Assembly: GCA_000165345.1 (NCBI GenBank)
Contig: CM000433.1
Coordinates: 192,001-256,000 of the forward strand
Direction: 5' to 3'
DNA length: 64,000 nucleotides
Below are positions 1 to 61,703 of the stretch, in pieces. Each line of letters begins with the position of its first letter. The stretch's first letter is position 1. Both the position numbers and the translations under genes were made by a program. The notes beneath the pieces were generated by a model. That model saw only the letters and a program-made list of their open reading frames with translations, was not told the origin of the DNA and did not search any database.

Positions 1-3000
1 GCCATATTTGTATAACATTGGGGAACTAAGTTATCATTGGATTTATTATGATTAGGATTACTTTCCGCTTTATTTTCAAGATTTCCATAGAAATTAGCAT
101 TAAAGAAGTCAACTTGAGGATCTTGACCAGAATAATTACCCTCGCTTCCTAGAGTTATTTTTCTTGTAACAACCATATCCTCAAAGTTTGACTTTTTCTT
201 CATCTTAAGGATCTTTTTCTGTTCCTTTTCTTGTTTTTCTTTCATTTCTTTTTCTTCTTTAATGATCATTTCCTTAGTCTTCAAAGCTGACCATGCTGTG
301 TGGTTGTCTGGAGGACCAGGATCATACAAAGGATCTAAAGATAATTTGAATTCCAATAAAGTCAAATAAGCATTAATTCTTTCTTCAAGTTCTGAGCTTC
401 TATCGAATAATGTATCCTTTCCCAATTTTTGTCTGTTTAATACAATATTTTCTTCAACTGAAACTGATATTGACTCTTCTAATTTTTCAACAGCTCTTCC
501 TTGCAGCGGTGGTTCTATGATCAAATCCTGGAAGATATTTTCTGGTTTTGATCCACAGAATGTTCTCCATTTATAGGGATTATTTAAATCATATGTGATC
601 AAAGCAGGGTGGTGATTGCCCAGATTACCCCAAACTTGCCTATTATTAAAAACCAATTCAATTGTACTATAGGGTACATATGAAATAAGTTCTGGAGTCA
701 AAAATCTTTTATCTGGAATAATGGGTATATTCTTAATGTATTCTGTGATAACTTTTTTAATAATATCTAAACTAGTATTTTGGAACTTAATTTTGTCAGA
801 TTTTCGATTGCCAATATCTTCTTCATCTTCTTCAGCAGGATTATTGTATTCTACCTCTTTTGGATCAATTTTTATGTCTGGAACCAAAAATTCACCCCAA
901 ATATCTATACCCATGTTTTCATTGGCATGCGTTTCAACATATTTAACTTGCCCTGTTTGTTTCAACCATTCAAACCATTGCTGCAAATATAGCCCGTTGT
1001 AGTATTCTCTTTCCTTCTCAAACATTTCGACCCTTGAGCTATCGTCAGGAACTTCTACATCATTATTATCATTATTTACTGACGGCATGACCTCTGCATT
1101 TTGTTGAAATGGATTTCTCATTGAATAATACGGATCTATTCCATACCTACAAGGAAGTACATATCTTTGTTTATTTGTAACTTCCCAAAATTGAACATGA
1201 CCAAATCTGTGTCTAGTCATGACCCACATATGTTCTAGCGTCCCATTTTCGATTGTACCTTTACATACATATGCATCGAATCCGATCCCTAATAAACAAC
1301 TACAAAACATTAATACATGATCTCCAATACTTCCCTTTTTTGATAATAAGAACAAATTAGGAGGAGTAAGTTCTGGAATCTTCCCTGGTGGTTTAATTTG
1401 ACTTTCCAATGTTATATACATAAAATTGTTAATCCAATGCAACAAACTTCCTTCATTTGATATCAAATTTGGAACTGCAATAGGAGATATATATGAACAT
1501 AATGGAAAAATCTCTTCAGTTTGTGGATGTCTCTGTAATACATTGAAATTTCTTTTATCAGGCGCAGATGAAAACCATTGCTTATAAATCCCTTTCCATT
1601 TGTGAAAATCACGGTTCCATCTATTTCCTAGTTGTTTCCAAATATTGCTGATTGCTTTAGTTGATGGTGGAGCAGGAATCACAACATCAGCAGGGAATGG
1701 TGGAATAAAGAACATCTCAAAATGAATACTTGGTTTTATAACACTCTTCCCAAATCCTTTTGATTGTAGTAACATATTCATATTGAGTACTAAAGTATTA
1801 TAGGGAAGTGTATATAAAGTATTGTTGACAAAAATATTATCATCGTTTTCAGCTCTGTCACCTTCTTGATCAAAATTTGGTTTCCCATCAGCTCTTCTAG
1901 ATCGTTTATCTATTAACCCTTCAGCTAAACATCTAAAATCTTCTTTTCCAAGGGTGTAAATTTTATTTAGATTGACTTCTCCTGATCCCAATAAGATGGA
2001 TGATGTATCACTTCTATTCCAAACTTCAATCTTTAATGGGCCTTTACAGAGTAAGTCGATCGGTAAACATTTTCTCCTAAAGCTTGGAATCAAAAGTTCT
2101 CTTTGATCCAAAATTCTTACAGGAAAGTACAAATTTTGGTTATATACTGGCCTCCTTGTTTTTTCTCTGACTGAAGATGTATTAACAACTCCATCCCAAG
2201 TAACTTTTACTATAGGGTCAGAAGTACCCGTTACTCCATCTGCAGCAGCTAAATTATCACACTTGAAGAGCCTAAAGACCAAATACCTTTCATTTATATT
2301 TAACTGAGAAACCAATGCTGCTCCTGAAGCAACTTGAGACGGCCTACTTCTAATATTTTCATTAGGTTGGCCTGTGCTCTTTGAATAGCAAAAAACATTA
2401 CCAATGATTTCCCCTCCAACAATCTTGTAAATATCGATTGTTATTCTCTTAATTATCGTTTTAACTAAGGGATAACTTTCTACAGATGCTAAAGAAATCA
2501 TTGCAGCTCCTATTACAGAAGGTCCAAATTTTAAATAAGCTAACACTTCTACTATTATATATGCATTTCTTAACTGACATCTCGTTCCAGTAAATACAAA
2601 CTCGCAAACTGACTTCCAATAACCTCCAGTAGAATATGGAGTAATCATAGTTTCTGCATTGATAAATATTAATGTTTAAAGAAATTTATTACATTTCAAC
2701 TTACTCCTAGAAGACATTCCTGAAGTTATATCATTATTTAAAGGTACCTTTAGTCTCAAAAATTTGGGTGCTTTTTTAATTTCAATAGGAAGTTTCTTAT
2801 TAGGAATAAAACTCCAATTTTCCAAGGAAATATCAAAATCAAAAATTTCTTGTAACTGTAAAGTTACTCTGCTTCTATGCACTTCAAAACTTTTTTGGTT
2901 AAGATCTTTACGAGGTTTTCCATCCTTTCCCAAAGGTGCAGGAAGATGCTTTTTAAACATTAAATGAGTTTCTGGATCGTTTTCCAGTACATCTTTGAGT

Positions 3001-3759: not shown

Positions 3760-4225
3760 CTTTAGATGCTTAATAACTTAAACAAAAACTAATCTATGGA
3801 AATCCTTTCAATTTTATATTTCTCTTATTTCGATTAATTTTTTTAATCTTATTATTCAACATGTAGATCAGCTTCATGTTCAGAACCCCACAGCTACCGC
3901 CAAATCCAGGTATGACTTTATTATTTTAAAAACATTGCATGCAGTTTTGCACCTAGAATAAATTGAATAGTTTTTTTTTAGAATGTTCATAGGATTAATT
4001 TAAAATTTTTATTCATTAGTGATTCTTATGTGTTAAAACAAACGATTATATCAGGGTTTGATTTATAAAACACTATATTTTCTGTAATATCATTTTCCAA
4101 ACATCAATATCAGAGAATTCGAATGGAAAGGGCTTACCATCTTTTCTGTTTTGGAAACTATTATTTCTCTAAAAGTTAGAATATAATTTCTTGGAGAGAA
4201 CTATACCATTTTATCTTGTTTTAAA

Positions 4226-7538: not shown

Positions 7539-7807
7539 ATTATACTAAACTCGAATTCTACTTCGAGAATAATTCAATTTAAACCTGATTCTTTCAATTT
7601 TTTAGAATATTTTGAATAAAAATATTAACCATTATTCAGCATATAAACAAAATATTTTATTATTTAAAAAAGAAAAGTAGTTAAAAAGTATATTGGAAAT
7701 GAACTTTAATCCTATTTTACAAGTGACAAAAAAATTCAAATAATCAAAATAAACCTGGCGCCAAATCGTCAACTTGAAAATTTAAAACTAAATATAGATT
7801 ATTTATG

Positions 7808-10800
7808 CTAAAGTAAGAATGAGGAAAATACTGATTTATCATTTTTGTAGTTCTTTTGATTGACTTTATTGAGATTTGGAGGATTGAGTACAGGAACCAT
7901 TCTTCTCTTCCAATCATTGGAATTTTCAAGCTCATTAATGACTATCGCAATACCTATCTTGAATCTTTCTCTCGCTGAGTCATCGAGAAAAATGAGCTGA
8001 AGAGAAGTCAGCCTAGACAACTTCTTTCTTTCTTTACTAGTAGCATCCTTTGAATCGCTGACATCTCCATCGCTTTCGTCAGATCCTAGTAGGGGATCTT
8101 CATCACTACTTGTTGGTTTAAAAATTTTAGCCTTTGCATCATTTTCCGCATCACCTTTAGATTTCTCCCATTGATTCTTTTTCTTCTTTTTCTTCTTTTT
8201 CTTTTTTGGGCATAATTGATAAACTAGTTTGACTTCTGGTTCTTCTAGTGGGCCAAATTGTGCAATTCTTAAACGGTGAATCCTAAATACACGTAATTTT
8301 TGGAACAAATTTTCCTTTGCAAGCTTTAGCCTTGTTTCATACCAAGTAGCAAATTCAGATCTGAAATTCTTTAAAGAAATTCCAATGGATTTATTCTCTA
8401 ATTTTCTTGTATTGGTTCCCGGTTTTGAGTTTTTATTCTCTTCATTATTTTTGTCGATTGATTCATCATTCCCTTGAAATTTATCTTCAGATATATCTAC
8501 ATTTTGGTTCGGTATTTTATCCAATATTCCCAAAAAATTCATTAGTCCATGCTTTTGAACTCCAGAAATGCTATCACTTACTTCCTTTAAACTAGAAATT
8601 TCAACGCTTGGTGGTATTACCATTTCTCTTCTAAAATATAAATCCTCACCAGTTTCCAGCATATTTGAATCAGGGCAAAACCAAAATCTCCAATCTACAA
8701 GAAACTCATATACACTATTAATTGTTACTACATATAACTTTAGTTGTGCCTTTTCTGCGTCATGTAGCATTGCAGCCCTTGGATACGCAGAAATAGGAAA
8801 TCTACTTTTCCGCTTTGGAGGAAAAATTAAATCAGAAACTGTATCTATCATTTCATCAATGAAGAACTTCTTTTTTTTCAAATCTGGGGGCCTTAAAGAA
8901 TATAGCTTATCAATTTTTGGATTGTTTATTTCTTCTGGCTTTAATTTTTCACCTAAAGCAAATTGTATTGCTCTAACATTGTCAATCCTTAATAAATGGC
9001 TCAAACAAGTTCTACTCACAAAATCATTATATATATTCAACGGAATACTCAAAAACTCGGCAGACTTTTTTCTGATTCGATTAAGCATCTCATCTCTATC
9101 ATCAATTTTATCAAATATTATTATATCATAAATTGTACTTCTCCATGTAAAATTAGAATTTATCGCATCAACATTTTCTGACGTTTTATCGTTTTGAGAT
9201 GTAGAACCAGAATTTAAGTTCCATCCAAGCATTGCTGTTTGCTCACCCAATAAGCTTCTAACAATTCTCTTTAGATCCGAGTATTCCCTTTTAATTATCG
9301 CTGTTGGATCCTCTTTATACTTAAATTGTTCGTTTGCCACTACATTTCTCACGGTTTTTGGTCTTTCAAAAATATAATAAGCATTTGTAGTTAATATTAA
9401 AACGCTTCTTATACTTTGAGGAGGCCCTGGGTCTTCATTATCGGAATTACTCCCACCTAAAATCCCGGATAAATTGATCCCTGTCAATTCGGAAATACTT
9501 GAAGATATATCATTGCCTTTTTTAGTTGATTCATCATTTTTTTTGCTTCTTTCCTTCTTCACATAATCTCTTAGCTCTTTAGTCTGTATAAATACATAGC
9601 AAGGATAAACCCCAATAATTCTTTCATTTCTTTCGTAATAATATGATAAAAAGAGCTCCACTCCCTTTGAAAAATGTAAGGTATTAACATGATCCATTAA
9701 CTCAAAGACAAAAGAGCGTCTCAAAGGAAAATGTCTAAAAATTGTCTGAAATGTAAAACCCTCTACTACATAATACCTATATTTGGAAGATTTTTCCATA
9801 AGCAGAGATAGCGACTTAGAACTATATTGTCTCATTGACTCTCTCAATTTAATCATGGTTTCTGGCATTTCCTCCTTCTTTTCTTGTATGTATTTTCTAG
9901 TAAACATTAGCGGAATATGAGCCATATATGTGCCATGACTACTACCAATAGAAATCTGAATATCAAATAATACCATCTGTTGTAGACAGTTTAAAAGTAG
10001 AGGACTAATAAAATATCGAATAGACTTTTCCAGTCCATATTCATTTATGGATTCAACTCTAGAAAATTGAATATTCCCCAATAATTCCAACATTGAATAT
10101 ATTGCTTTACATAAGCAAGTGCAAAGTAGTTGCTCTTCTGGTTTTAAGTGCCTTCTTGTTGCTTGCTGTAATATATAGACAATGGCATCCAAAATTGAGT
10201 TAATAAACCAAAATCCAATATATAGAGGTATTAATAAATCCATAGATGCTGCATTAGTATTTGTTTCAAGCTCAAAAATATCACTTAAAATTATCAGGAA
10301 CTTTGAAGCTACGTGGGATTCTAATAATCCGCAACTTAGTACCAGCTTTGCAGTTCCATCCAAAATGTAAGGTTTCAGCATGACTTTCTTTGCATAACTT
10401 CTCAGTTTCAAGCTCGTATTTGATTTTATGCATACAAATATTATTCTCAAAAATGGTGCTACAGCAAGATGAATATTCACTGTTGCAGAAATAATGTTCT
10501 TCCAAACAGAGCCAGATCCTTCCAATTTATTTTGAGCTTTTACCGTTTCAGATGAACTTAGAGATGCAGAAGTTAAACTAATTGAGTTACTGGAGTTTGC
10601 ACCTCCAATATTATCAAAACTTAAAGAATTAGAAACTTTTAAATCACTTTCTATAGATCCAGTAGTTAGCGGCCCATATTTGTTGTAGACACCATGTAGA
10701 ATATTCCTTGCTCTTGGATGAATAATAATTGTTTCCTCGTTGGGATTTGCTTCGTAATCCAAATCTGCAACTTCTTCAATTTCAATATCAGAATCTGATA

Positions 10801-14824: not shown

Positions 14825-14965
14825 TATTATTGCAGCATTTTATTATAAAAATACCTTTTAAAATCCCACAGATTGCTTTTCAGTTTGCCATGCAAATAAC
14901 AAAAAAGCACACTTACCGCCATCAAACGATTTTATTTTAGGGCCTACATGACCGCCACCCGATAC

Positions 14966-14987
14966 TTTGGCGGCACAGTTTTGGCGG
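14966..14987. promoter_or_regulatory. Tandem E2F-like boxes (TTTGGCGG x2) flanked by CCATGCAAA repeats in a divergent promoter
   Basis: actTTTGGCGGcacagTTTTGGCGGtgtCCATGCAAAa, and GCCATGCAAA again at 14887-14896. The site is 140-170 bp upstream of the LRR-gene ATG (14824, minus) and about 500 bp upstream of the CDPK ATG. Confidence 0.45.
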
Positions 14988-15480
14988 TGTCCATGCAAAA
15001 TAAATCTGAATAGACAGTGCGAAAAGAAATAAAGACATGTTAAAAGCTCGATGCAATCATTAATGCTCTCGAATTGATCGATAGATTATTTGATCTTGAC
15101 ATTATCAAGAAGCTTAACTGTTTTTTGTTGCAGAATTTTGTGAATCAACGGTTATAGTTATCAAGGTCAAATTATTTTACGATCGGCAAAATAACTGAAC
15201 GTCAAATAAAGAAAGCCAGATAAAATTGGGAAAAATTACTTCAAACTGAAGGTAGGGATTGAAATAAAAAGAATAGGTCTGGTACTTAAATTATGTAAAA
15301 AAAATAATAACAATAACTATTAAACTGTAAGTTAATTGTTAGATTAATATTTAAGACTAATCATTATTTGGAAATAAACCAAGACAATAGTCTATTCAAT
15401 ATTTTTTCTTATTGTTGATTTATAGACAAGTGATTTGAATAAATAGTTTTTTGTGAATATCACTTTTTATTCAAAAGAAA

Positions 15481-20365: not shown

Positions 20366-21191
20366 TAATTACCATACCCTTTTGTTAAATCCCACTTGCA
20401 AATGATTTTTGAGTACTTTCACTTAACTTTGCGTAATCATAAAAACATTCACATAAATTAGTAAAACCCGCCATTATTCAATTCCTTAGGTTTAACTAAA
20501 ATACATGTAAATTACTTCTATTTGCAAAAATAAGAAATTAATCGATGGATTCCCTCAATATTCTGAATTTAGCATCACTATAAATTTTAATTAATCGTTT
20601 TATTCTTAAATCACTACTATTGTTGGAAAGAGGGGGTTTTGAATTATTTTATCTACCACAATAAATATAAAACATACTGAACAAGTTCGGATATTGAAGA
20701 TTATATAAAATGTGGCTCTTTATGCTACTTCAATCTATATGATTGTTCATATTTTAAATATAACGCAACTTTAGCAACTTTGTGTTAAAAAAAAAATTCG
20801 TTTTTTAATAATAGTCGGTTAACACATAGTTCCTATTGAAATTCATTTCAATTAATATTAACTTAATATCAACCTTCTAACAACTAAATAAAAAGTTAAT
20901 TTAATTTTAATTAGAAATATTTTTTGGGGGTGTTTTAATACATTTTCAAAGGTGGGGATAAGAAAAAAGGTGAGGGAAAAGTTGAGGCTTACCACAAGCG
21001 AGAAAATATTGCGGTAGGTTAAAAAATTATTACCTTTCCAAAATATAGCTGGGCAAGAAAGATATCTTTTTATTTGAATGAAATAGAGAAATGTCAGAAA
21101 ATTTACCCGTGTATACAGAGTTATTTGACGCTCCATGGGTATTTGGGAATTATGAGGTTACAATTGATCAGAATATAGGCAAGTATTACAC

Positions 21192-22221: not shown

Positions 22222-22589
22222 ATTCCCTTCGCTAATACTTGGAGCTTTTCTATTAACACTCACAACTAAAACATAAGTGAATCGCAGTTCATCTGAATCA
22301 ATATTAGAAGATTTTTTAAATAAGTAGTTACGCGATATTACTATTGCAGATGCAGTTACATACAAAAAATCTAGCTTTATAAATAGGTATAAATAAGCAA
22401 ATATAACTAGCAATAGGAATTACTTAGAGTACATTGGTAATTTCTATCAATTATTTTTTTTTTAATTTTATTTCTATCGTTGAGGGAGAAACATTTTTCG
22501 TTCCGATTGTTAGTGCTTGGCGCTAAGGCGTATTGCATCTCTTTTCGTATTACAATATTTATTAAAAGAAATAAATTGTTTGAAGCGAA

Positions 22590-23830: not shown

Positions 23831-24086
23831 TATTTGAATTATTGAACTTTATTAAAAGATGAAATTAGCTAAATACTCCAAGATGATTTGAAATATTAAG
23901 TTTATTTTTAAAAATAATTAAATATAATATTGAAATTTGAATTATTTATTTATTAAAAATATTACATGACAAACGTATTTATCACATAATCTGCATATTG
24001 CAAGTGGCCGCCACGCAATCTTCAAAATGAGAAGACCAAATATTCGGAAGTGAAAAAAATATAAATTAACTAATCAAAAATATTTA

Positions 24087-24941
24087 CTAAAATAATAGTT
24101 TAAAAAAAATAATCAGTATTTCCACTAATATACAAGCTATCAAAAAGTTTATTAACTTCGAAAAAATCTTGTTCTTAATACTTTTTTCTGCTTTTGAAAT
24201 TTGTTGGTATGCGTTTTCCACCCTTAACAACACATTATCAATATTGAAATCTATTCTGTCTATTAAAGAGCCCTGCTCAACAACCATCGATGACATTTCC
24301 TTGAAAATGGAATTGAGTTCTGCAATACTTCTTGTTATTTTAGTAATTTCCTTTAAAAATATGAGTTAATCGTCATTATTATATTCACAACTTACCTCGA
24401 TGTTAAAACCGTTTGCATCTTTAAAAATGAACTCCTTGCTCTGATTATTTGTTTGAGAACAAGAATAACTAGTTTTATTGAATTCTTGTTCTCCTATGAC
24501 AGAATCTTCAAAATTTGTTTGAACTCCATCTAGACGGTTAATATAATTTTTTTGTAGTTCTGACATATAATTTTTTTGTATAAATTTGAACTGCTGAGAT
24601 AAAGGATTTAGTTCATTTGCAATACTTATTTCAGCATTTTTCCTCAAAATCATATAGTTAATTAAACTTTTATGGCAAGGTAAATTTTCTTTGCTTTCAG
24701 CAGGTGAGTTTGAAATAGATTGGGCTAGACTTTCAATTCGTTTAAATAATTTACAAATAGAATATGTCAATGAATCCACCTCAATTTCAGATAATTTCAT
24801 TGTATTATCCTTTAGCACGCACATGAGCCTCTTTTGTTGAGTTTTTTGTAAAAGTGATATTAATTCTTTTGCTCTGGTTAGCTCCTCCTGTGCCTCAATA
24901 TGTAAGTCAACCCAAAAAGGTGGTAAAGTATTGCTTTTCAT
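24087..24941 (-). CDS. Syntaxin (Qa-SNARE) with a C-terminal TM anchor (2 exons: 24396..24941, 24087..24350)
   Basis: The 45-nt intron 24351..24395 (GTAAGT to TTTAAAG) joins the 191-aa and 69-aa ORFs in frame. The spliced product has a canonical Qa SNARE motif (IAELNSIFKEMSSMVVEQGSLIDRIDFNIDNVLLRVENAYQQISKAEK) with the zero-layer Gln, followed by a TM helix (FSKLINFLIACILVEILIIFF). Confidence 0.75.
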
Positions 24942-25209: not shown

Positions 25210-25217
25210 TGGCGCCA
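25210..25217. promoter_or_regulatory. Palindromic E2F-like box TGGCGCCA
   Basis: gggcgaTGGCGCCAgccatatgcaaa, a GC island in AT-rich DNA about 270 bp upstream of the syntaxin ATG (24941, minus). Confidence 0.4.
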
Positions 25218-26628: not shown

Positions 26629-26735
26629 AATTGCTGAATTGAAAACAACGCTGCGCCATTAAAAACTTGATTGGTATGGTCAAAAAAAAAAAAAAAATAG
26701 TTTAAAATAAAATTAAACTCCTAGCCTCTGAATAA

Positions 26736-27094: not shown

Positions 27095-27246
27095 TTGAGA
27101 CTTGTCTTTAGAATTTATTTATTTATGGGACCTTTTTTTGTGCCCCTTATGTCATGCGCCTTCTAAATCCAAAGAACAAAAACATTTTTTTTGTATCATT
27201 TATAAATGAACATCATAATTAATAATAATTAAGAAATTTATAACAT

Positions 27247-30105: not shown

Positions 30106-30140
30106 AATTAATTCTTTTAGGTGCTTAAAAAAAAGTGAAT

Positions 30141-38513: not shown

Positions 38514-38525
38514 TTAGGCGCGCAC
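38514..38525. promoter_or_regulatory. E2F-like box TTAGGCGCGCAC in the H2A.Z / PCID2 divergent promoter
   Basis: It sits about 125 bp upstream of the H2A.Z ATG (38385, minus). The rest of the interval is AT-rich. Confidence 0.4.
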
Positions 38526-38914
38526 TAAATACCGCAATACAGTAAATTGCATGAGTAATTTTTAAATCGTAAAAAAGTAAAGTGCCACTATTTAGTTTTT
38601 CTAACTCGATTACATTTTTAATTTCGACCTCTGCATTTTGGTTAGTTTATATGGGTTTTGTTCATTAATAATACACTTATTTTTGAAATTAGAGTAGTAG
38701 CCTCTATTCAAATCAACGCTAAAATGCGATTACAATCGTATTCGATTTCTTATTTACGTTTATAAATATTCATATGTATTATTATTATATATGTATTACA
38801 ATCTGGCTAAGGTTAAAATTATTAGTTCCGCATCAATAAGTATTTTTGCTCTTAGTTTGGAAAAAAAGGTCTAGGTAGTGCGCCAGTTCTTGATAATAGT
38901 TAAGATGTCAAAGA

Positions 38915-40952: not shown

Positions 40953-41325
40953 GAAATAACTAATCGAGCATCCATATCATTACATTAATGTGTGCTATAT
41001 TAATTTTAGGATAAAGTATTTACCGCCGACCAAACACATGGCAATTGAGAGGGAAATTGAGAGGGCAAATAAAAAAAAAAAAGCAGTAAATAATACCAAA
41101 GGCATTATATCGAATTAAGCAAAGAAACTTATGAAAACTGTATTACCTAGCAACTCTATCTTAATGGTTAACTGCAACGGCAATCCGAATGACCAACTAC
41201 AATTAAAACCAACATCTGCTTAAAATGTAATTATAAAGTAACAAGATAAACCTATATGATTGTACCTCGTTTCATCCGTATATTGAAGCAGATCTCGGCA
41301 GACTTAACCAGCTAAAAAAGATTTC

Positions 41326-41934: not shown

Positions 41935-42116
41935 TTTCTGTTAGATAAAAATTAGGGTGAATAATCCAAGTTTTTATTTATTCTGAATTTACTAGAGTTT
42001 CAGCAAATGGTGTCAAACTATGTTACAATTATTATTCAGAGACAGACATTGCTTTATGCGCGTCTACATTTAGTGCGGTACTAATTGCCGCATTAAAATA
42101 AAAGCGGAATCAATAA

Positions 42117-42968: not shown

Positions 42969-42981
42969 TTTTACGCGCGAA
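42969..42981. promoter_or_regulatory. E2F-like box TTTTACGCGCGAA centred in a 100-bp bidirectional interval
   Basis: It lies between the ATG at 42917 (minus-strand gene) and the ATG at 43018 (TFIIIC-like, plus). Confidence 0.4.
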
Positions 42982-49047: not shown

Positions 49048-51159
49048 TTAATTATCCCCATTTTTTAATATTGTAGTTGTATTAATTGGGTTTGATGTTT
49101 TTATTTGTATTATTTTCTCGTTCTCAGGTAGCAGAGTTGTATTTTGTGCAGCACAATTCAATTGCGGAACAAACTTTAATTCATTTGAAAATAAAGAATT
49201 TTGAGAATTGTTTTTACTCAAATTAGCATTAGCATTATTTGATTGACATACACCTGGAGAAATTCCAAACGGAACTGCCATTTCTGAGTGAATTTGAGAA
49301 TTTAAAGGGAAAAGGGTTAAATTTGAATCGTTTTTTTGCTTATTAATAATTCCAGAGTTATTTAATAAACTTTGTGTTTCGTATGACCCCATATGATTTA
49401 ATGGGATATAATATGGATACATAGATGAGTTAGTATTGAGTATTAAATATGGACTTGATGTTCCAGTTGGGTGCAAAATTGTAGGAAGCTGAACTTGAGA
49501 AAAGTTTCCAAGAGCAATTGATTGATTAATTCCACAAATGTTTTGTATTGAACTCCCTATTAATGAGCTATTTCTCAAAGATTCAAATAAATCTTGTTGT
49601 ATATTTTGACTTTTAGCGCTATTTTTTTCACCAGTAATAATTTGAGACTCCATGTCGACATTAACTATACTGTTTTTATGGGTGCCTCCATTATCTTCAA
49701 AATTGTTAATTGTTGCTTTAACCATTCTTGCATGCGCCATAGTAGGAGTGTCACTGCAATCAATAGATATAGGAGTTGTTCCAGCGCTTGAGCAATTACT
49801 CAAGTTATCTGACATTTGAATAGATGTTGTATTTTGGGAGGATGAAAGCATATTAAAGGCTTTTAACCTTTCTATGGTAAGGCTTGTATCAAGCTTCTTA
49901 GTATTGTCTAGATAGTTTATGAAGTCATGAAGATATGATTGTTGCTGCGCTAAAGAACTAATTACTGGGTTGAAAGTGACCGGAGAATTTTGCTGTATCA
50001 TGAATTGTGAAATCGGTACCTGCGAATTTATTTTTGAAGCGAACTGTAATTGAATTTTGCTCAAATCTAACTGTGATGATAGTGACTCAGATGAGCTACA
50101 TGATTGAAGCTGCTCAAGATGACATCTTTCATCCTTATCAAAAACAGAAGTTTTATTTAATGGTGTTGATTCTTCTGAATTATCGTTTCTATTATTGTAC
50201 TTCAGAATAGGAGCTGACAAAAAAAAGTTATGTGTTCCGTTTGTTCGTGCATATTCTAGAAATCTTTGCATGACAGTGATTAAAGTTTTTTCGGCCATCT
50301 CAGCTGTAACGTCATTTAATTCATGATCTTTTGATACTTGTAGTTTCCAAACAAGCCTAACTGATTGTAAATGATCACAGAAAACTACGTAATCTTGAAG
50401 TGCAAACTGATGGCGATAAGAATAATGCCAGTTCCTATTTAAAAAACTTGTTTGATTGCTATGCTTGGCACAATAAGTCTGTTGAGGGCATAAAGTTGCA
50501 GCAAAATAATTACAATCATCTACAACATCACCATATGCTTCGTAAACACACCTTGGAACCATTAAATTACCACCTTTTGGTGGTAGGTACAATATTTTCC
50601 ATTGCCCAACAATTTTTTCTCTTTTGTCAGCTTTTGGGATACAGTCACAAGAAGGACAAAGAGTCCACCTTTTCTTTCTACCTGTAAAGCCAACGGTAAT
50701 AACTGTTCGATCCATTGTGTCGTTAGATAATCTAGTGCTACGCTTACTAAAGTCGAAAATATAACCATCGACTTCATCTTGATGTGTAACAGCATACCTT
50801 CTTAATCCAATAGTTCCGGGCTCATAATGAGAAATGATAACATTTCTTTCAGTCTCATTAGAAACTTTTTCGAACAATTCTTTTTCAAAACTTATATTCA
50901 TAGAGTCAGCAAAACTACAGAATGAAGGTACATGACGTGGTTTCTGTCTATGAACTGGAGTTTTCGATGCATAAGGTTTACGTATAATCGTAGTTCCATT
51001 ATTTGTATTCATTCTGAGATTATTTTGCATTCCTGGATTTGAAACTGTTTCATGCATAAGCTGATTACGTTTAAAAGATAATTCCTTTATTTCATTAATT
51101 GACTCACTTGTATCCGTCTCTTTAATTTCAATTATTGGCGTTTTTTTAATTTCAAACAT
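49048..51159 (-). CDS. Member A of a divergently arranged paralog pair carrying an unassigned conserved Cys-containing domain of about 250 aa, with a Q/N/S-rich low-complexity tail
   Basis: 703 aa. The conserved block PRHVPSF...YEPGTIGLRRY...VITVGFTGRKKRWTLCPSCDC...VYEAYGDVVDDCNYFAATLCPQQTY is shared with the 52398..54713 gene. Confidence 0.5.
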   Translation of the reverse strand: MFEIKKTPIIEIKETDTSESINEIKELSFKRNQLMHETVSNPGMQNNLRMNTNNGTTIIRKPYASKTPVHRQKPRHVPSFCSFADSMNISFEKELFEKVSNETERNVIISHYEPGTIGLRRYAVTHQDEVDGYIFDFSKRSTRLSNDTMDRTVITVGFTGRKKRWTLCPSCDCIPKADKREKIVGQWKILYLPPKGGNLMVPRCVYEAYGDVVDDCNYFAATLCPQQTYCAKHSNQTSFLNRNWHYSYRHQFALQDYVVFCDHLQSVRLVWKLQVSKDHELNDVTAEMAEKTLITVMQRFLEYARTNGTHNFFLSAPILKYNNRNDNSEESTPLNKTSVFDKDERCHLEQLQSCSSSESLSSQLDLSKIQLQFASKINSQVPISQFMIQQNSPVTFNPVISSLAQQQSYLHDFINYLDNTKKLDTSLTIERLKAFNMLSSSQNTTSIQMSDNLSNCSSAGTTPISIDCSDTPTMAHARMVKATINNFEDNGGTHKNSIVNVDMESQIITGEKNSAKSQNIQQDLFESLRNSSLIGSSIQNICGINQSIALGNFSQVQLPTILHPTGTSSPYLILNTNSSMYPYYIPLNHMGSYETQSLLNNSGIINKQKNDSNLTLFPLNSQIHSEMAVPFGISPGVCQSNNANANLSKNNSQNSLFSNELKFVPQLNCAAQNTTLLPENEKIIQIKTSNPINTTTILKNGDN

Positions 51160-51644: not shown

Positions 51645-52397
51645 GATTTTTGCATTTAGTGTCTACTTAGTGTGCATTTATTTGAGCGCTAATTTTTATA
51701 GGTATTAATTGTGGATTATAAAATGAGAATATAAAGCAATTATATACAATTTTTAATCTTTCACAAAACTATTACAAAGAAGCAAACACATAAATAGCTT
51801 ATGTAGTTATTAATATATTTACGGGTTTAGTCTAATAAAATTTTCATTAATTGAATTTTTAAAATAAACGACATTCCATAAAATTGCATGTAAATTTTTT
51901 TAGTAATTTACCGGTAATTAGCATATATTCATGCTTGCATGAATATACCGCCCCCACGTTAGGCGCCAACTTGCATCAATAACATACGTGTGCTAGAAAG
52001 ATATTAAAGGCAAGATTCCGCTAAAAATAGAGATATCATTATCTGCCGACATTTGTGTGAACAACTGCACGCATGTCAGGTGGCTGCTTATCCCACAAAA
52101 TAAATAATAATTAAGTATCGTATAGAGTACCATCTATAACTTTAGCTAGTGGCGAAAGTGGAAAATCTAATAATTTAAAATATTTATTAAAATAATAAAG
52201 ATATCGTCTAAAATAAAGTAAAATATAGAATTAAATACAAAAACAATAAATAAAAATTAAAACCCATTTTTTTAAAATTATAATGCAACAAGAAATTAAC
52301 CAATAAAGAAAGAGAATTAAATTACAAAAGCGTTTTTACGAAATTAGGCGATAATTGGATTATAATTTCGACATTTTCGCATTTTGCGTCTATCAAC

Positions 52398-54713
52398 ATG
52401 TCGGATTTTCACTGTAATTCAGTGGACAGTGATATAATTTATGAGTATGAAAATATTTCGGTGAACCAAATGATTGGAGTTAGGAATGGGTTTCGAAGCC
52501 AGGATAATATACATCGAAGCGATGTAGAATTAAGTAAACAAGGTTACAATGGCTTAAAAGATGGGATAGTAAGTAATTCATCAGAAGTCAACGCATATAA
52601 CAGAAGTGTGAATCCCAATAGGCGTGGAGGCAAGTTGAAGCCAAGACATGTTCCTGATTTCGTATTAATATCGCCTGAAGATGTAGATAGATTACTCTCT
52701 ACAGTAACGACTTTAGATGAAAGAAAGACAATAATGAACAATTATGAGCTTGGGACTATTGTATTAAGAAGGCTATGCATAAGCGAAAGTAGCGAAATCA
52801 AAGCTTTTATGGACTCGATTCAAATGAGAACAACAGGAAAAGCATTAGAAAGCCATGAACGGAATATAATTTGCTTGACTTTTAGAGGGCAGCCTAAGAG
52901 GTGGGTGTTTTGTCCATGCAGAAGCTGTTTATTTAAAGGTAAGGCACATGATAAATTAATGGGCCATTTTAAAATTATGGAGCATGATACTCAGACAAAC
53001 AAATTTCAAATCTCTAAGAACGTTTATGATTCATATGGCGTTTTCATGGCTTCTTGTGGCTATTTTGCTGCCACGTTTTGCCCCCAACAAAATTATTCTT
53101 CGCATAAAGTATTTGTCGGCCCTACAATTTCAGATTTGAAAGGCAGGATTCATGATCGATATATATTATTCATCAATGACTCAAAAGTTATACAAATGGC
53201 ATGGAGAAGAAAACAGAATTATTCCTTTGAATGCGAGGAATTACTTAGTAATGTAATGTCCAAGTTGATAGTTTGTGGGAAATCAGGTCATGTACAGATG
53301 ATAAATCAGTTGAGTAAAGGATACTCTGGACTAATATCTCTTCCACTTAAATTACGTTTCCATTGCGAAAACTTAGAAAAACAGCCTAATTCGATTAGTT
53401 CGGTAAATGAATTTAGCAAAGGGGGAGTTGGCTTAGTCAATAAAAAGAACAAGAGAAAAATGAGCAAGAGGAATATGGAAGATTGGGATATTATAAATTC
53501 AGATAAATTTTTGAATGATGCAAATGAACTTCAGAATGCTTATAGCAAAGGTATGGATCAGAGTCTGACATCCAAATCTTATTCTTTTCCAAATTCTCCA
53601 ATAGTAAGGGTTCAAAATAACCAATATTATAATTCAGATAGCAATTCTTTAACTCCAAGATGTACAAAACAGTACATTTCAGAATCAGGGCATGATATTG
53701 ATGGTGAGACTCTAACTTCTAATAGATATGGCTGTATTGTTGGCGATGTATCTACTGCATCAGCAACACCTATTGCAGAAAGCGCAGATTGCATTATTAA
53801 CAAGCAGTTTAATAATTATAATTCAAAGATTTTGGATTGCATTCAAACAATAAATAAAAGCGGGTTATCATTAAACGATATGAGTAGAGGCATTTATGCA
53901 GGTAGCCCGTTGGATCCAAATTCCTTCATTTCAAAAGTTCCAATTCCATCTTCCTTCTTCAACAATATAGGCCAAAATAAGATTTTGATGAATAACATTG
54001 ACGCAAATAAGGCAGATAGATACGGGAATAAATCAAATAGCAAAAACTGGCTTGGATCATTAGAAAATGAAAATGAAAACCCAAATATAAAACAATTAAA
54101 AGAGAACTATTTGTATGGGGATTTTTCACAGGGTAATGGAATTTTTAGATCACATTTTCAACAGAATTTCATAAATGAAGGAGCTCACTTCAATTTTAAT
54201 CCTTTGGCATTTTCTTCTGATTCCGCAACCAACCCAATTCTACAAAATGAGACAATTGAAGAGGAATCCATAAACAAGCAAAATTTTAACGGTGGATTTA
54301 TAATAAATGGTATCGCTGCAAACCAATCAATCTCTTTATATAGGCAAGTTTTTTCTACGAATGAAATCACAACTCCAAATTCTACGCTTGAAATTTCATC
54401 ACCCATACAACAGATTCAACATTCATTTATTTCAGATGGAATGGGTCAAGAACAGAACAGCCAAATTAATATTATTCAACAAACGCAAAATATCGTTAAC
54501 CCTGGAACATATAGTGATGTATTTGGAGAAGATGTAACACAATGCGCTTCATGCGAGCATTGCTCAATTGGTGGGTATCCTTATTATTGCAATTGCTATA
54601 AAATGCCATCTGAATCAGCAGCTAGCTCTAATGTTATCGATGTTAATGATACTGCAGGAGTCTTTCAGTTGAATAATCAATTTATTCATGCTTCACATGA
54701 GGTGGATACATAG
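52398..54713 (+). CDS. Member B of the paralog pair, with the same unassigned Cys-containing domain and an N/Q/S-rich tail
   Basis: 771 aa. Conserved block: PRHVPDF...YELGTIVLRRL...IICLTFRGQPKRWVFCPCRSC...VYDSYGVFMASCGYFAATFCPQQNY. It is head-to-head with paralog A across 1.24 kb. Confidence 0.5.
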   Translation: MSDFHCNSVDSDIIYEYENISVNQMIGVRNGFRSQDNIHRSDVELSKQGYNGLKDGIVSNSSEVNAYNRSVNPNRRGGKLKPRHVPDFVLISPEDVDRLLSTVTTLDERKTIMNNYELGTIVLRRLCISESSEIKAFMDSIQMRTTGKALESHERNIICLTFRGQPKRWVFCPCRSCLFKGKAHDKLMGHFKIMEHDTQTNKFQISKNVYDSYGVFMASCGYFAATFCPQQNYSSHKVFVGPTISDLKGRIHDRYILFINDSKVIQMAWRRKQNYSFECEELLSNVMSKLIVCGKSGHVQMINQLSKGYSGLISLPLKLRFHCENLEKQPNSISSVNEFSKGGVGLVNKKNKRKMSKRNMEDWDIINSDKFLNDANELQNAYSKGMDQSLTSKSYSFPNSPIVRVQNNQYYNSDSNSLTPRCTKQYISESGHDIDGETLTSNRYGCIVGDVSTASATPIAESADCIINKQFNNYNSKILDCIQTINKSGLSLNDMSRGIYAGSPLDPNSFISKVPIPSSFFNNIGQNKILMNNIDANKADRYGNKSNSKNWLGSLENENENPNIKQLKENYLYGDFSQGNGIFRSHFQQNFINEGAHFNFNPLAFSSDSATNPILQNETIEEESINKQNFNGGFIINGIAANQSISLYRQVFSTNEITTPNSTLEISSPIQQIQHSFISDGMGQEQNSQINIIQQTQNIVNPGTYSDVFGEDVTQCASCEHCSIGGYPYYCNCYKMPSESAASSNVIDVNDTAGVFQLNNQFIHASHEVDT

Positions 54714-57877: not shown

Positions 57878-57965
57878 TTAGTGTAATATTTGCTCACAGA
57901 TAAATGGTAATCGAAAAAGAAGGGGCGGCAATATTTTTTGAAATGAGTATGAAATGTCTATAACA

Positions 57966-58613: not shown

Positions 58614-58650
58614 ATTTTGTTAATGTTCAGTTCTACCGCGCAAGAATTCT

Positions 58651-60543: not shown

Positions 60544-60747
60544 TTAAAATAATTTGTCAATCTTATTATTAGTTAAAAAAAAAAAAATCATTTAGGTAAA
60601 CAAAAGAAAAATCTAATAATGACATTGCACATCTCCACATACTACGCGCCAAATTTTGGAGTTATTGAATAATAAATGAAAACTAATAATATATAAATTA
60701 GTATATTCTTTATTTTACGAGTAATTGATTTATATTCACGCAAATCT

Positions 60748-61509: not shown

Positions 61510-61703
61510 TAACTTATTACTATATTTACTACCTTTGAGAACGCATTATTGCGATTTTTTTCGAAAATAAAAGATTAACTTTTTTATTATCGTACCTATA
61601 AGCATCTTAAAAAAACATTACCGCCGAATTATTACAGTTATTTTTTAAGTTGAATGAATAATTGAATATCTTTATTCGAATTATAGAATAATAATTATAT
61701 TTT

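What the first reader, a model, noticed from the sequence alone, without database searches (positions are those of the whole stretch)
14880..15000. GC-rich E2F-like boxes recur at fixed short distances upstream of many genes in otherwise AT-rich intergenic DNA
Isolated GC islands stand out against the roughly 75-80% AT intergenic background. They include TTTGGCGG x2 (14966-14987), GTGGCCGCCACG (24004-24015), TGGCGCCA (25210-25217), CTTGGCGC (22516-22523, about 70 bp upstream of V-ATPase F), TTAGGCGCGCAC (38514-38525, upstream of H2A.Z), GTGCGCCAG (38878-38886), TTTATGCGCG (42053-42062, about 120 bp upstream of RPL13A), TTTTACGCGCGAA (42969-42981), CCGCCCCC/TAGGCGCCAAC (51948-51970) and GGGGCGGCA (57922-57930, about 50 bp upstream of TFIIF-like). 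All fit the E2F/DP consensus family TTTSSCGC / GGCGCC. E2F-like motifs are documented as over-represented upstream elements in Cryptosporidium, which fits with both the taxon guess and cell-cycle-type targets (histone variant, ribosomal protein, transcription and replication genes). CCATGCAAA repeats flank the first site.
Basis: partly seen in the sequence, partly recalled or inferred. Interest (0 to 1): 0.5.

Follow-up and report, generated by a model that had tools for sequence, protein, structure and literature searches.

The report
Known E2F-like promoter boxes, Cryptosporidium
The short GC-rich boxes between genes in this Cryptosporidium parvum window are real, far commoner than chance and kept across species, but they are the E2F-like promoter motif already published as the commonest upstream motif in this parasite, so the finding is correct but ordinary.

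Summary
Every box is at the stated coordinates. The window is Cryptosporidium parvum, matching record CP044418.1. The core GGCG[C/G] occurs 23 times in 8.6 kb of intergenic DNA and 16 times in 55 kb of genic DNA, about 9-fold denser. With my first ORF-based gene map, dinucleotide shuffles predicted 4 where 24 were found. Of all pure-G/C pentamers, only GGCGC, GGCGG and GCGCG are enriched. The boxes explain the whole excess of GC islands. They lie only in spacers that hold a gene 5' end (15 of 24) and never in 3'/3' spacers. The enrichment recurs in C. canis, C. ryanae and C. muris. Individual boxes persist where the surrounding spacer has diverged: 7 of 11 in register in C. canis against 11.5% background. 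The "fixed distance" claim fails: boxes lie 25-446 bp from the ATG, no different from random placement in the same spacers. The "cell-cycle targets" reading also fails, because about 70% of genes of all kinds carry a box. This is the published E2F-like motif family (Oberstaller 2013; ATAC-seq preprint 2025). Binding by E2F/DP remains unproven. In passing, the 51948-51970 boxes sit in a 156-nt element that is 71% invariant across the genus, and the word GCGGTA is confined to intergenic DNA.

The parts
3895..3904 (-). E2F-like box, reads TTTGGCGGTA on the minus strand. It lies in the divergent spacer between the 343-aa gene and the GT92 gene.
7756..7765 (.). E2F-like box TGGCGCCAAA (palindromic core), 219 bp upstream of the DUF155/RMND1 gene ATG.
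14888..14896 (+). CCATGCAAA, a CATGCA word of the AP2_1 (TGCAT) motif family. It is kept in C. canis.
14914..14922 (-). TACCGCCAT (ATGGCGGTA on the minus strand). This is the least conserved box of the cluster; C. canis has GTCGCCAAG here.
14952..14957 (-). CCGCCA (TGGCGG on the minus strand), kept in C. canis shifted by 1 bp.
14966..14973 (+). GGCGG is kept in C. canis shifted by 1 bp.
14980..14999 (+). Composite TTTGGCGGTGTCCATGCAAA: an E2F-like box abutting CCATGCA. It is kept in C. canis (CTGGCGGTATCCATGCAAAA) and in C. muris (TGGCGCGGTATCCATGCACA).
20467..20473 (-). CCCGCCA, 103 bp upstream of the ITFG1-like gene ATG. It is exact in C. canis.
22516..22523 (+). CTTGGCGC, 67 bp upstream of the V-ATPase F gene ATG. 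TTTGGCGCTAAGGCGTAT is identical in C. canis.
24004..24015 (-). GTGGCCGCCACG (GTGGCGGCCAC on the minus strand). The 14-mer CAAGTGGCCGCCAC is identical in C. parvum, C. canis, C. ryanae and C. muris. It lies 313 bp upstream of the 198-aa gene ATG and about 85 bp past the SNARE stop.
25210..25217 (.). TGGCGCCA, a perfect match to the published consensus, about 45 bp upstream of the annotated SNARE ATG. GGCGCC is kept in C. canis.
26652..26659 (-). TGCGCCAT, 25 bp upstream of the annotated TrmO ATG. It is exact in C. canis.
27155..27160 (-). TGCGCC in the divergent spacer between DPM3 and the 952-aa gene. CATGCGCCTT is present in C. canis but displaced by about 6 bp.
38514..38525 (+). TTAGGCGCGCAC, 132 bp upstream of the H2A-variant gene ATG. 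It is kept in chipmunk genotype I.
38878..38886 (-). GTGCGCCAG, 31 bp upstream of the PCI-domain gene ATG. GCGCC is kept in chipmunk genotype I while both flanks differ.
41021..41028 (-). TACCGCCG (CGGCGGTA on the minus strand), 71 bp upstream of the TLDc gene ATG.
42053..42062 (+). TTTATGCGCG, the weakest fit to the E2F consensus. Even so, TGCGCGTCT upstream of RPL13A is kept in C. muris (-175 from the ATG, against -131 in C. parvum).
42969..42981 (.). TTTTACGCGCGAA in the divergent spacer between the 266-aa gene and the TFIIIC-like gene. The CGCGCG core is kept in C. canis and chipmunk genotype I with diverged flanks. C. muris has two GGCGC boxes in the same spacer.
51948..51970 (.). CCGCCCCCACGTTAGGCGCCAAC: two E2F-like boxes plus a G-box word (CCCCAC). 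It is nearly invariant in four species.
51935..52090 (.). 156-nt noncoding element that contains the two boxes above. 111 of 156 positions are invariant across C. parvum, C. canis, C. ryanae and C. muris. Its nature is unresolved.
57922..57930 (-). GGGGCGGCA (ATTGCCGCCC on the minus strand, no mismatch to motif 3), 47 bp upstream of the 460-aa gene ATG. It is not kept in register in C. canis or C. muris.
60645..60653 (-). CGCGCCAAA at the end of a block of about 45 nt (60608-60653) that is conserved in C. canis and C. muris. It lies in the divergent spacer between the 615-aa gene and the CCCH zinc-finger gene.
61619..61626 (-). TACCGCCG, 79 bp upstream of the acyltransferase gene ATG. TAACCGCCA is kept in C. 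canis.

Best explanation
The GC islands are instances of the E2F-like promoter motif of Cryptosporidium, with local consensus tTGGCG[C/G][c/t]a. This is a short cis-element scattered through the compact spacers that contain gene 5' ends.

The most likely mechanism is that the parasite's E2F/DP winged-helix heterodimers bind these boxes. Cryptosporidium is the only apicomplexan genus known to have kept this factor family. Binding would occur in nucleosome-free promoter DNA and would drive or permit transcription of most genes, often in both directions from a shared spacer.

The boxes commonly sit next to other known promoter words such as CATGCA/TGCAT (ApiAP2), G-box and GTGTG.

Shown here: identity with the published motif, specificity and size of the enrichment, restriction to 5'-containing spacers, recurrence in three other species, and purifying selection on individual boxes.

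Taken from the literature: the presence of E2F and DP genes, genome-wide over-representation, and location in open chromatin.

Inferred only: that E2F/DP is the protein that binds, and that binding activates transcription.
For: Sequence and specificity. Enrichment has z = 9.9 against dinucleotide shuffles, and equal-composition controls are flat. Density is 9-fold higher in intergenic than genic DNA. Only GGCGC, GGCGG and GCGCG among the 16 all-G/C pentamer pairs are enriched, in the window and independently in pooled C. canis, C. ryanae and C. muris spacers. E2F-like words are among the top hits of an unbiased k-mer scan. The flank consensus tTGGCG[CG] matches published motif 3 DTTGSCGCCH.

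Promoter association. 15 of 24 spacers that hold a 5' end carry a box. No box lies in 1.6 kb of convergent spacers in the window, nor in 4.0 kb in the other species.

Selection. 7 of 11 cores are conserved in register in C. canis, against 11.5% of background intergenic pentamers (P = 6e-5). Ten of 11 are retained within a few bp, in spacers that are only 49-59% identical overall. C. parvum and C. muris mostly agree on which orthologous spacers carry a box: both 7, C. parvum only 3, C. muris only 1, neither 9.

Literature. The E2F-like motif is the most abundant upstream motif, found in 163 of 200 expression clusters and upstream of 2,379 genes (PMC3734150). It is the top motif in sporozoite ATAC-seq peaks, and two E2F and two DP genes are expressed mainly in asexual stages (bioRxiv 10.1101/2025.01.17.633476). 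C. parvum AP2 domains tested on protein-binding microarrays bind TGCAT, CACACA and G-box. The E2F-like motif is listed there as one recognised by known non-AP2 proteins (PMC4117751).
Against: No direct evidence exists that E2F/DP binds these boxes in Cryptosporidium. A 2025 review states that most regulatory components lack functional validation (PMC12246861).

Many boxes here read GGCGGTA or TGGCGG rather than the canonical TTTSSCGC or the published TTTGGCGGGAA, so more than one factor could be involved.

Retinoblastoma-family partners are absent from the genome, so regulation cannot work as it does in animals.

The window holds only about 20 sites, and I have no transcription start sites. 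Position relative to the true promoter could not be assessed.
Confidence: 0.75

Rival explanations
1. The boxes are functional promoter elements, but some or all are read by a factor other than E2F/DP. Candidates include an untested ApiAP2 domain with GCC-box-like or DRE-like specificity, or a Myb or C2H2 protein. This applies especially to the (T)ACCGCC / GCGGTA subtype.
For: GCGGTA/TACCGC occurs 11 times in intergenic DNA (1.7 expected) and never in 52 kb of ORFs in my first ORF-based map. Six of the 11 lack the GG of the E2F core and read TGCGGTA or GCGCGGTA. The word is again enriched in pooled spacers of the other species: 10 against 2.9 expected, and 7-fold over genic DNA. Resemblance of ACCGCC/GCCGCC and of GCCGACAT (52045-52052) to plant AP2/ERF GCC-box and DRE sites is from my own knowledge only. 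No ChIP data tie E2F/DP to the motif.
Against: The AP2 domains of C. parvum tested on protein-binding microarrays gave TGCAT, CACACA and G-box specificities, not a GCGC or GGCGG motif. The palindromic TGGCGCCA and CGCGCG forms fit the symmetric E2F-DP core well. Five of the 11 GCGGTA sites are simply GGCGGTA, which overlaps the E2F-like core.
Confidence: 0.17
2. The GC islands act through DNA structure or composition rather than through a sequence-specific factor. For example, they might exclude nucleosomes, mark boundaries in AT-rich DNA, or be remnants of biased mutation or gene conversion.
For: They are the main G/C-rich features in 74% AT spacers. They occur at any distance from the ATG.
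Against: Only three of the 16 possible all-G/C pentamer pairs are enriched. Equal-composition words such as GGGCC, GCCGG and GGCCG are at or below genic density. The exact bases are conserved across species while the flanks drift. Both facts argue for sequence-specific reading.
Confidence: 0.04
3. Chance or annotation artefact: the boxes are no more frequent than expected, or they lie in unrecognised coding exons.
For: My first ORF-based map mislabelled several exons and small genes as intergenic, including DPM3, the SNARE and TrmO exons, the prefoldin gene and a 187-aa gene. One GCGGTA site (26947) is a DPM3 splice donor.
Against: After the map was corrected with public gene models the contrast became stronger: 2.7 per kb against 0.29 per kb. 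None of 500 shuffles reached the observed count. The same contrast holds in three other species.
Confidence: 0.01

Closest known systems
C. parvum E2F-like upstream motif family (Oberstaller et al. 2013, BMC Genomics 14:516, motifs 3 DTTGSCGCCH and 4 TTTGGCGGGAAV; noted earlier by Bankier et al. 2003 and Mullapudi et al. 2007)
   Same: Same organism and same core ([C/G]GCGC[G/C], GGCGG). Same location in upstream spacers on either strand at variable positions. Similar prevalence: I count roughly 24 of about 33 gene 5' ends here, against 2,379 of 3,281 genes genome-wide. Same co-occurrence with TGCAT-type and G-box motifs.
   Different: Nothing essential differs. In this window GGCGG is usually followed by TA (GGCGGTA) rather than by the published GGAA. 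The cross-species conservation of individual boxes measured here is not something I found in the papers I read.
Canonical eukaryotic E2F/DP binding site (TTTSSCGC; Zheng et al. 1999 structure, as cited in PMC3734150)
   Same: A symmetric GCGC-type core with a T-rich flank, palindromic forms such as TGGCGCCA, and a promoter location.
   Different: In animals and plants these sites mark cell-cycle and DNA-replication genes and are controlled through Rb-family pocket proteins. In Cryptosporidium the motif sits upstream of most genes, no Rb orthologue is known, and binding has not been demonstrated.
E2F motifs in C. parvum sporozoite ATAC-seq peaks and in the internal spacers of polycistronic transcripts (bioRxiv 10.1101/2025.01.17.633476)
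   Same: The same motif, reported as the dominant one in open chromatin. [quoted passage not shown]
   Different: I could not test accessibility or transcripts for this window. The three very short tandem spacers here (27-37 bp) carry no GGCG[CG] core.
ApiAP2 AP2_1 motif (TGCATGCA / TGCAT)
   Same: The flanking CCATGCAAA copies contain CATGCA. That word is enriched in intergenic DNA: 12 against 3.6 expected in the window, and 27 against 6.5 in the other species.
   Different: CCATGCAAA is not the full palindrome GCATGC. It is a separate motif family from the GC boxes.

Membership tests
C. parvum E2F-like upstream motif (Oberstaller 2013 motifs 3 and 4) | Sequence matches DTTGSCGCCH, TTTGGCGGGAAV or the core [C/G]GCGC[G/C] / GGCGG(G) | tested here: met
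   Four of the 12 listed boxes match a published consensus with no mismatch, and most others with one. TTTATGCGCG, GTGCGCCAG and CCGCCCCC are poor fits. add 10 further boxes with the flank consensus tTGGCG[CG].
C. parvum E2F-like upstream motif (Oberstaller 2013 motifs 3 and 4) | Over-represented in upstream or intergenic DNA relative to background | tested here: met
   z = 9.9 against shuffles, 9-fold over genic DNA, specific among G/C words, and absent from convergent spacers.
C. parvum E2F-like upstream motif (Oberstaller 2013 motifs 3 and 4) | The organism is Cryptosporidium parvum | tested here: met
   window proteins match GCA_015245375.1 record CP044418.1 exactly. Orthologues are named as Cryptosporidium species by their sources.
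Functional E2F/DP binding site | E2F and DP proteins are encoded by the genome | not testable with these tools
The literature lists cgd1_1560 and cgd6_1430 (E2F) and cgd7_3650 and cpbgf_8001850 (DP).
Functional E2F/DP binding site | Physical occupancy or in vitro binding by E2F/DP | not testable with these tools
   No ChIP, CUT&RUN, EMSA or protein-binding microarray result is reported for Cryptosporidium E2F/DP in the papers read.
Functional E2F/DP binding site | The sites are under purifying selection, as expected of functional cis-elements | tested here: met
   7 of 11 cores conserved in register in C. canis against 11.5% background. Several boxes are kept as far as C. muris.
Functional E2F/DP binding site | The targets are cell-cycle or DNA-replication genes, as in animals and plants | tested here: not met
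   genes with boxes include a V-ATPase subunit, a SNARE, TrmO, DPM3, an acyltransferase, an ITFG1-like gene and a CDPK. The literature finds no expression pattern tied to the motif.
Positionally fixed core-promoter element | Constant distance from the start codon or transcription start | tested here: not met
   25-446 bp from the ATG, not different from random placement in the same spacers (p = 0.67). Distance from transcription start sites could not be tested.
Structured non-coding RNA (considered for the 51935-52090 element) | Match to a known RNA family, a stable fold, or compensatory base changes | tested here: not met
   There is no Rfam match at gathering score, and only junk matches at E <= 10. 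Fold z-scores are +1.2 and +0.7. Only 0 and 1 compensatory pairs were found on the two strands. With only four sequences the power is low.

The most novel reading that the evidence does not exclude

One reading is an unusually rigid bidirectional regulatory module. It would pack E2F-like, G-box, TGCAT and GTGTG sites between two divergent paralogous genes. The other reading is a small RNA gene with its E2F-like promoter.

The block is 84% identical to C. ryanae and 77% to C. muris. The neighbouring 771-aa protein is only 59% and 51% identical to its orthologues in those species.

Separately, GCGGTA/TGCGGTA may be a distinct promoter word that is absent from the published 25-motif list.
Probability: 0.25. 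Interest if true: 0.4.

Novelty: already known. Interest (0 to 1): 0.15.

Why it matters
It confirms that a reader working from raw sequence alone can recover the dominant promoter motif of Cryptosporidium, but it adds nothing new to the field's picture. That picture is of E2F-like boxes as the commonest upstream motif, in the only apicomplexan genus that kept E2F/DP.

The small additions here are that individual boxes persist between species whose spacers are otherwise barely alignable, and that boxes are absent from 3'/3' spacers. Both strengthen the case that they are working promoter elements. They also nominate specific boxes for the mutagenesis and E2F/DP occupancy experiments that the field still lacks. 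Good candidates are 14980-14999, 22516-22523, 24004-24015 and 60645-60653.

Tried and rejected
- **Positional bias.** Distances to the ATG do not differ from random placement in the same spacers, so 'fixed distance' is rejected.
- **Hidden first exon.** I considered whether ATGGCGGTAAGT at 14908-14919 (minus strand) is a mini-exon plus splice donor of the 2338-aa gene. It is not: the public model starts at 14824 and the donor-like sequence is absent in C. canis. One other GCGGTAAGT (26947) is a real DPM3 splice donor rather than a promoter word.
- **RNA gene at 51935-52090.** There is no Rfam family or tRNA, no stable fold and no covariation. Single-base and two-base indels and non-periodic substitutions argue against a coding exon. 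The element remains unresolved.
- **Literature on GCGGTA.** The search returned only PCR primers.
- **Small-RNA catalogue.** The supplementary tables of the C. parvum small-RNA study (PMC9465071) are not held, so I could not check whether the 156-nt element is one of its 43 intergenic candidates.
- **Chipmunk genotype I.** Its spacers are 70-89% identical to C. parvum, too close to be an informative footprinting partner.
- **First gene map.** My ORF-based map was wrong in several places and was replaced with public gene models.

Full report
**What the window is**

The window is 30.9% G+C and gene-dense. Proteins translated from it are found letter for letter in Cryptosporidium parvum assemblies. 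These include GCA_015245375.1, record CP044418.1. The window corresponds to about record positions 213,119-277,118 and differs by a few single-base indels.

It also finds a CDPK, PP2C, TrmO, a PRP1-type splicing factor, an ArfGAP and others. The 'TFIIF-like' gene has no Pfam match, so that label could not be confirmed.

My first ORF-based gene map mislabelled several exons and small genes as intergenic. I replaced it with the public gene models. This gave 34 genes, 8,569 bp of intergenic DNA and 55,431 bp of genic DNA.

The boxes are not chance.

- With the first map, the core GGCG[C/G] or its complement occurs 24 times in intergenic DNA against 4.1 +/- 2.0 in 500 dinucleotide-preserving shuffles. 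In coding DNA it occurs 15 times against 20 expected. Control words of equal composition are flat.
- With the refined map the density is 2.7 per kb intergenic against 0.29 per kb genic.
- An unbiased k-mer scan puts TGGCG, CCGCC, CCGCCA, GCGCCA and GGCGCCA among its top hits, next to A/T-rich words such as AATAA and poly-A.
- Runs of five or more G/C are twice as common as expected in intergenic DNA (31 against 15.2). Twenty-one of the 31 carry the core, so the E2F-like boxes account for the whole excess of GC islands.
- Of the 16 possible all-G/C pentamer pairs, only GGCGC, GGCGG and GCGCG are enriched in intergenic over genic DNA.
Ten more of equal quality are present.

**Where the boxes lie**

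Fifteen of the 24 spacers that contain at least one gene 5' end carry a core. None of the nine 3'/3' spacers (1.6 kb) does.

Counting the CGCGCG box as well, I count roughly 24 of about 33 gene 5' ends with a box upstream. That is close to the published genome-wide figure of 2,379 of 3,281 genes.

The title claim of 'fixed short distances' does not hold. Distances to the nearest ATG run from 25 to 446 bp with a median near 100. Pooled over the window and three other species, they cannot be told apart from random positions within the same spacers (p = 0.67). The boxes are close to genes because the spacers are short.

**Related species**

Using orthologues of three window proteins, I fetched syntenic loci from C. 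canis, C. ryanae, C. muris and Cryptosporidium sp. chipmunk genotype I.

- The enrichment recurs in each species: 1.5-2.6 boxes per kb intergenic against 0.11-0.33 per kb genic.
- Again no box lies in convergent spacers (0 in 4.0 kb).
- The same three pentamers stand out.
- In alignments with C. canis the spacers are only 49-59% identical. Even so, 7 of 11 cores are conserved in register, against 11.5% of background intergenic pentamers (P = 6e-5). Ten of 11 are retained within a few bases.
- C. parvum and C. muris spacers are mostly unalignable, yet the two species largely agree on which orthologous spacers carry a box.
- Several boxes are kept outright in C. muris: GGCGGT(A/G)TCCATGCA in the focal 14980-14999 site, CAAGTGGCCGCCAC at 24004, GCGCCAA at 60646 within a 45-nt conserved block, and TGCGCGTCT upstream of RPL13A.

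This is good evidence that individual boxes are functional.

**The focal region**

The region 14880-15000 lies in the 656-bp divergent spacer between a 2338-aa LRR protein gene and a CDPK gene. It holds four boxes. Two read TGGCGG on the minus strand (14916, 14952) and two read TTTGGCGG on the plus strand (14966, 14980). They are bracketed by two CCATGCAAA copies.

The cluster is kept in C. canis. The last box plus CCATGCA is kept in C. muris.

CATGCA is itself enriched in intergenic DNA. It belongs to the known ApiAP2 TGCAT family.

**What it is, and how it probably works**

The boxes are the E2F-like motif family described for C. parvum: motif 3 DTTGSCGCCH, motif 4 TTTGGCGGGAAV and the core [C/G]GCGC[G/C]. 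This is the most abundant upstream motif in that genome (PMC3734150).

A 2025 preprint finds the same motif to be the leading one in sporozoite ATAC-seq peaks, many of which are bidirectional promoters. It reports two E2F and two DP genes expressed mainly in asexual stages.

Protein-binding microarrays of C. parvum AP2 domains gave TGCAT, CACACA and G-box specificities, not this motif.

The best-supported mechanism is therefore binding by E2F/DP heterodimers in open promoter DNA, acting as a general promoter element rather than a cell-cycle-specific one. That last step is inferred. No occupancy or in vitro binding data exist.

**Rival explanations**

- A different or additional factor is possible for the GGCGGTA/TGCGGTA subtype.
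- A purely compositional or structural role is unlikely, given the word specificity and base-level conservation.
- Chance and annotation artefact are excluded.

**Things seen in passing**

- It is 71% invariant across four species. It is 84% identical to C. ryanae and 77% to C. muris. The adjacent 771-aa protein is only 59% and 51% identical to its orthologues in those species.
- It has no Rfam match, no stable fold and no covariation. Its indels and non-periodic substitutions argue against a coding exon.
- It contains two TGCAT words, a G-box word, two GTGTG words and the two E2F-like boxes. These motif positions are more conserved than the rest of the element (92% against 64% invariant).
- About 76 further invariant positions remain unexplained.
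- It may be a dense regulatory module shared by two divergent paralogous genes. It may instead be one of the genus-conserved small RNAs catalogued in PMC9465071, whose tables I could not read.

**Verdict**

The finding is already known, and interest is low.

Noticed in passing
window 51935-52090: A 156-nt noncoding element lies in the 1.2-kb spacer between two divergent paralogous genes of 703 aa and 771 aa. 111 of 156 positions are invariant in C. parvum, C. canis, C. ryanae and C. muris. There is no Rfam match, no stable fold and no covariation, and the indels are not multiples of three. It holds E2F-like, G-box, TGCAT and GTGTG words plus long unexplained invariant runs such as ATTCCGCTAAAAA, GATATCATTATCTGCCGACATTTGTGTGA and CTGCACGCATGTCAGGT.
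   Followed up: partly
window, strand and position: +21011, +42075, -61624, -58639, -51951, -41026, -38535, -36248, -26947, -14919, -3900: The hexamer GCGGTA/TACCGC occurs 11 times in intergenic DNA (1.7 expected) and never in 52 kb of ORFs in my first ORF-based map. Nine of the 11 are in sense orientation to a downstream gene. Five are GGCGGTA, which overlaps the E2F-like core, and five are TGCGGTA. The word is again enriched in C. canis, C. ryanae and C. muris spacers (10 against 2.9 expected). It is not in the published 25-motif table. One site (26947) is a DPM3 splice donor.
   Followed up: partly
window 14983-15050: The block after the last E2F-like box, GGCGGTGTCCATGCAAAATAAATCTGAATAGACAGTGCGAAAAGAAATAAAGACATG, is visibly better conserved in the C. 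canis alignment than the rest of a spacer that is 56% identical overall. It may be the CDPK core promoter or 5' leader.
   Followed up: no
window 60608-60653: A block of about 45 nt, AAAATCTAATAATGACATTGCACATCTCCACATACTACGCGCCAAA, is conserved in C. canis and largely in C. muris. It lies in the divergent spacer between the 615-aa gene and the CCCH zinc-finger gene and ends in an E2F-like box.
   Followed up: no
L015 about 9840-9860 (chipmunk genotype I, upstream of RPL13A); window 42072-42092: In chipmunk genotype I the GCGGTA word forms a perfect palindrome, ATGCGGTAATTAATACCGCAT. In C. parvum the second arm is degenerate (GTGCGGTACTAATTGCCGCAT).
   Followed up: no
window 24090-24365, minus strand: A conserved SNARE-motif plus transmembrane exon runs to a stop near 24090. 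Its peptide is 83% identical to C. canis and 46% to C. muris. The CP044418.1 gene call I mapped ends at 24312 with no stop codon there. The C. canis and C. ryanae annotations fuse the 198-aa, SNARE and TrmO genes into one 893-aa product. Gene models at this locus look unreliable.
   Followed up: partly
window 2649-2675, 30106-30140, 58614-58650: Three same-strand gene pairs are separated by only 27-37 bp with no GGCG[CG] core. This would fit the polycistronic transcription recently reported for C. parvum.
   Followed up: no
window 49048-51159 (minus) and 52398-54713 (plus): The two divergent genes that flank the conserved element are distant paralogues of each other. The search with the 771-aa protein also hit the 687-aa and 704-aa orthologues of the 703-aa neighbour at about 28% identity. 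Neither gene has a Pfam domain, and hits were found only in Cryptosporidium.
   Followed up: no
window 20632, 20926, 56347: The other GC islands in spacers are G-runs (GGGGG, CGGGGG). They fit the known G-box family rather than the E2F-like family.
   Followed up: no
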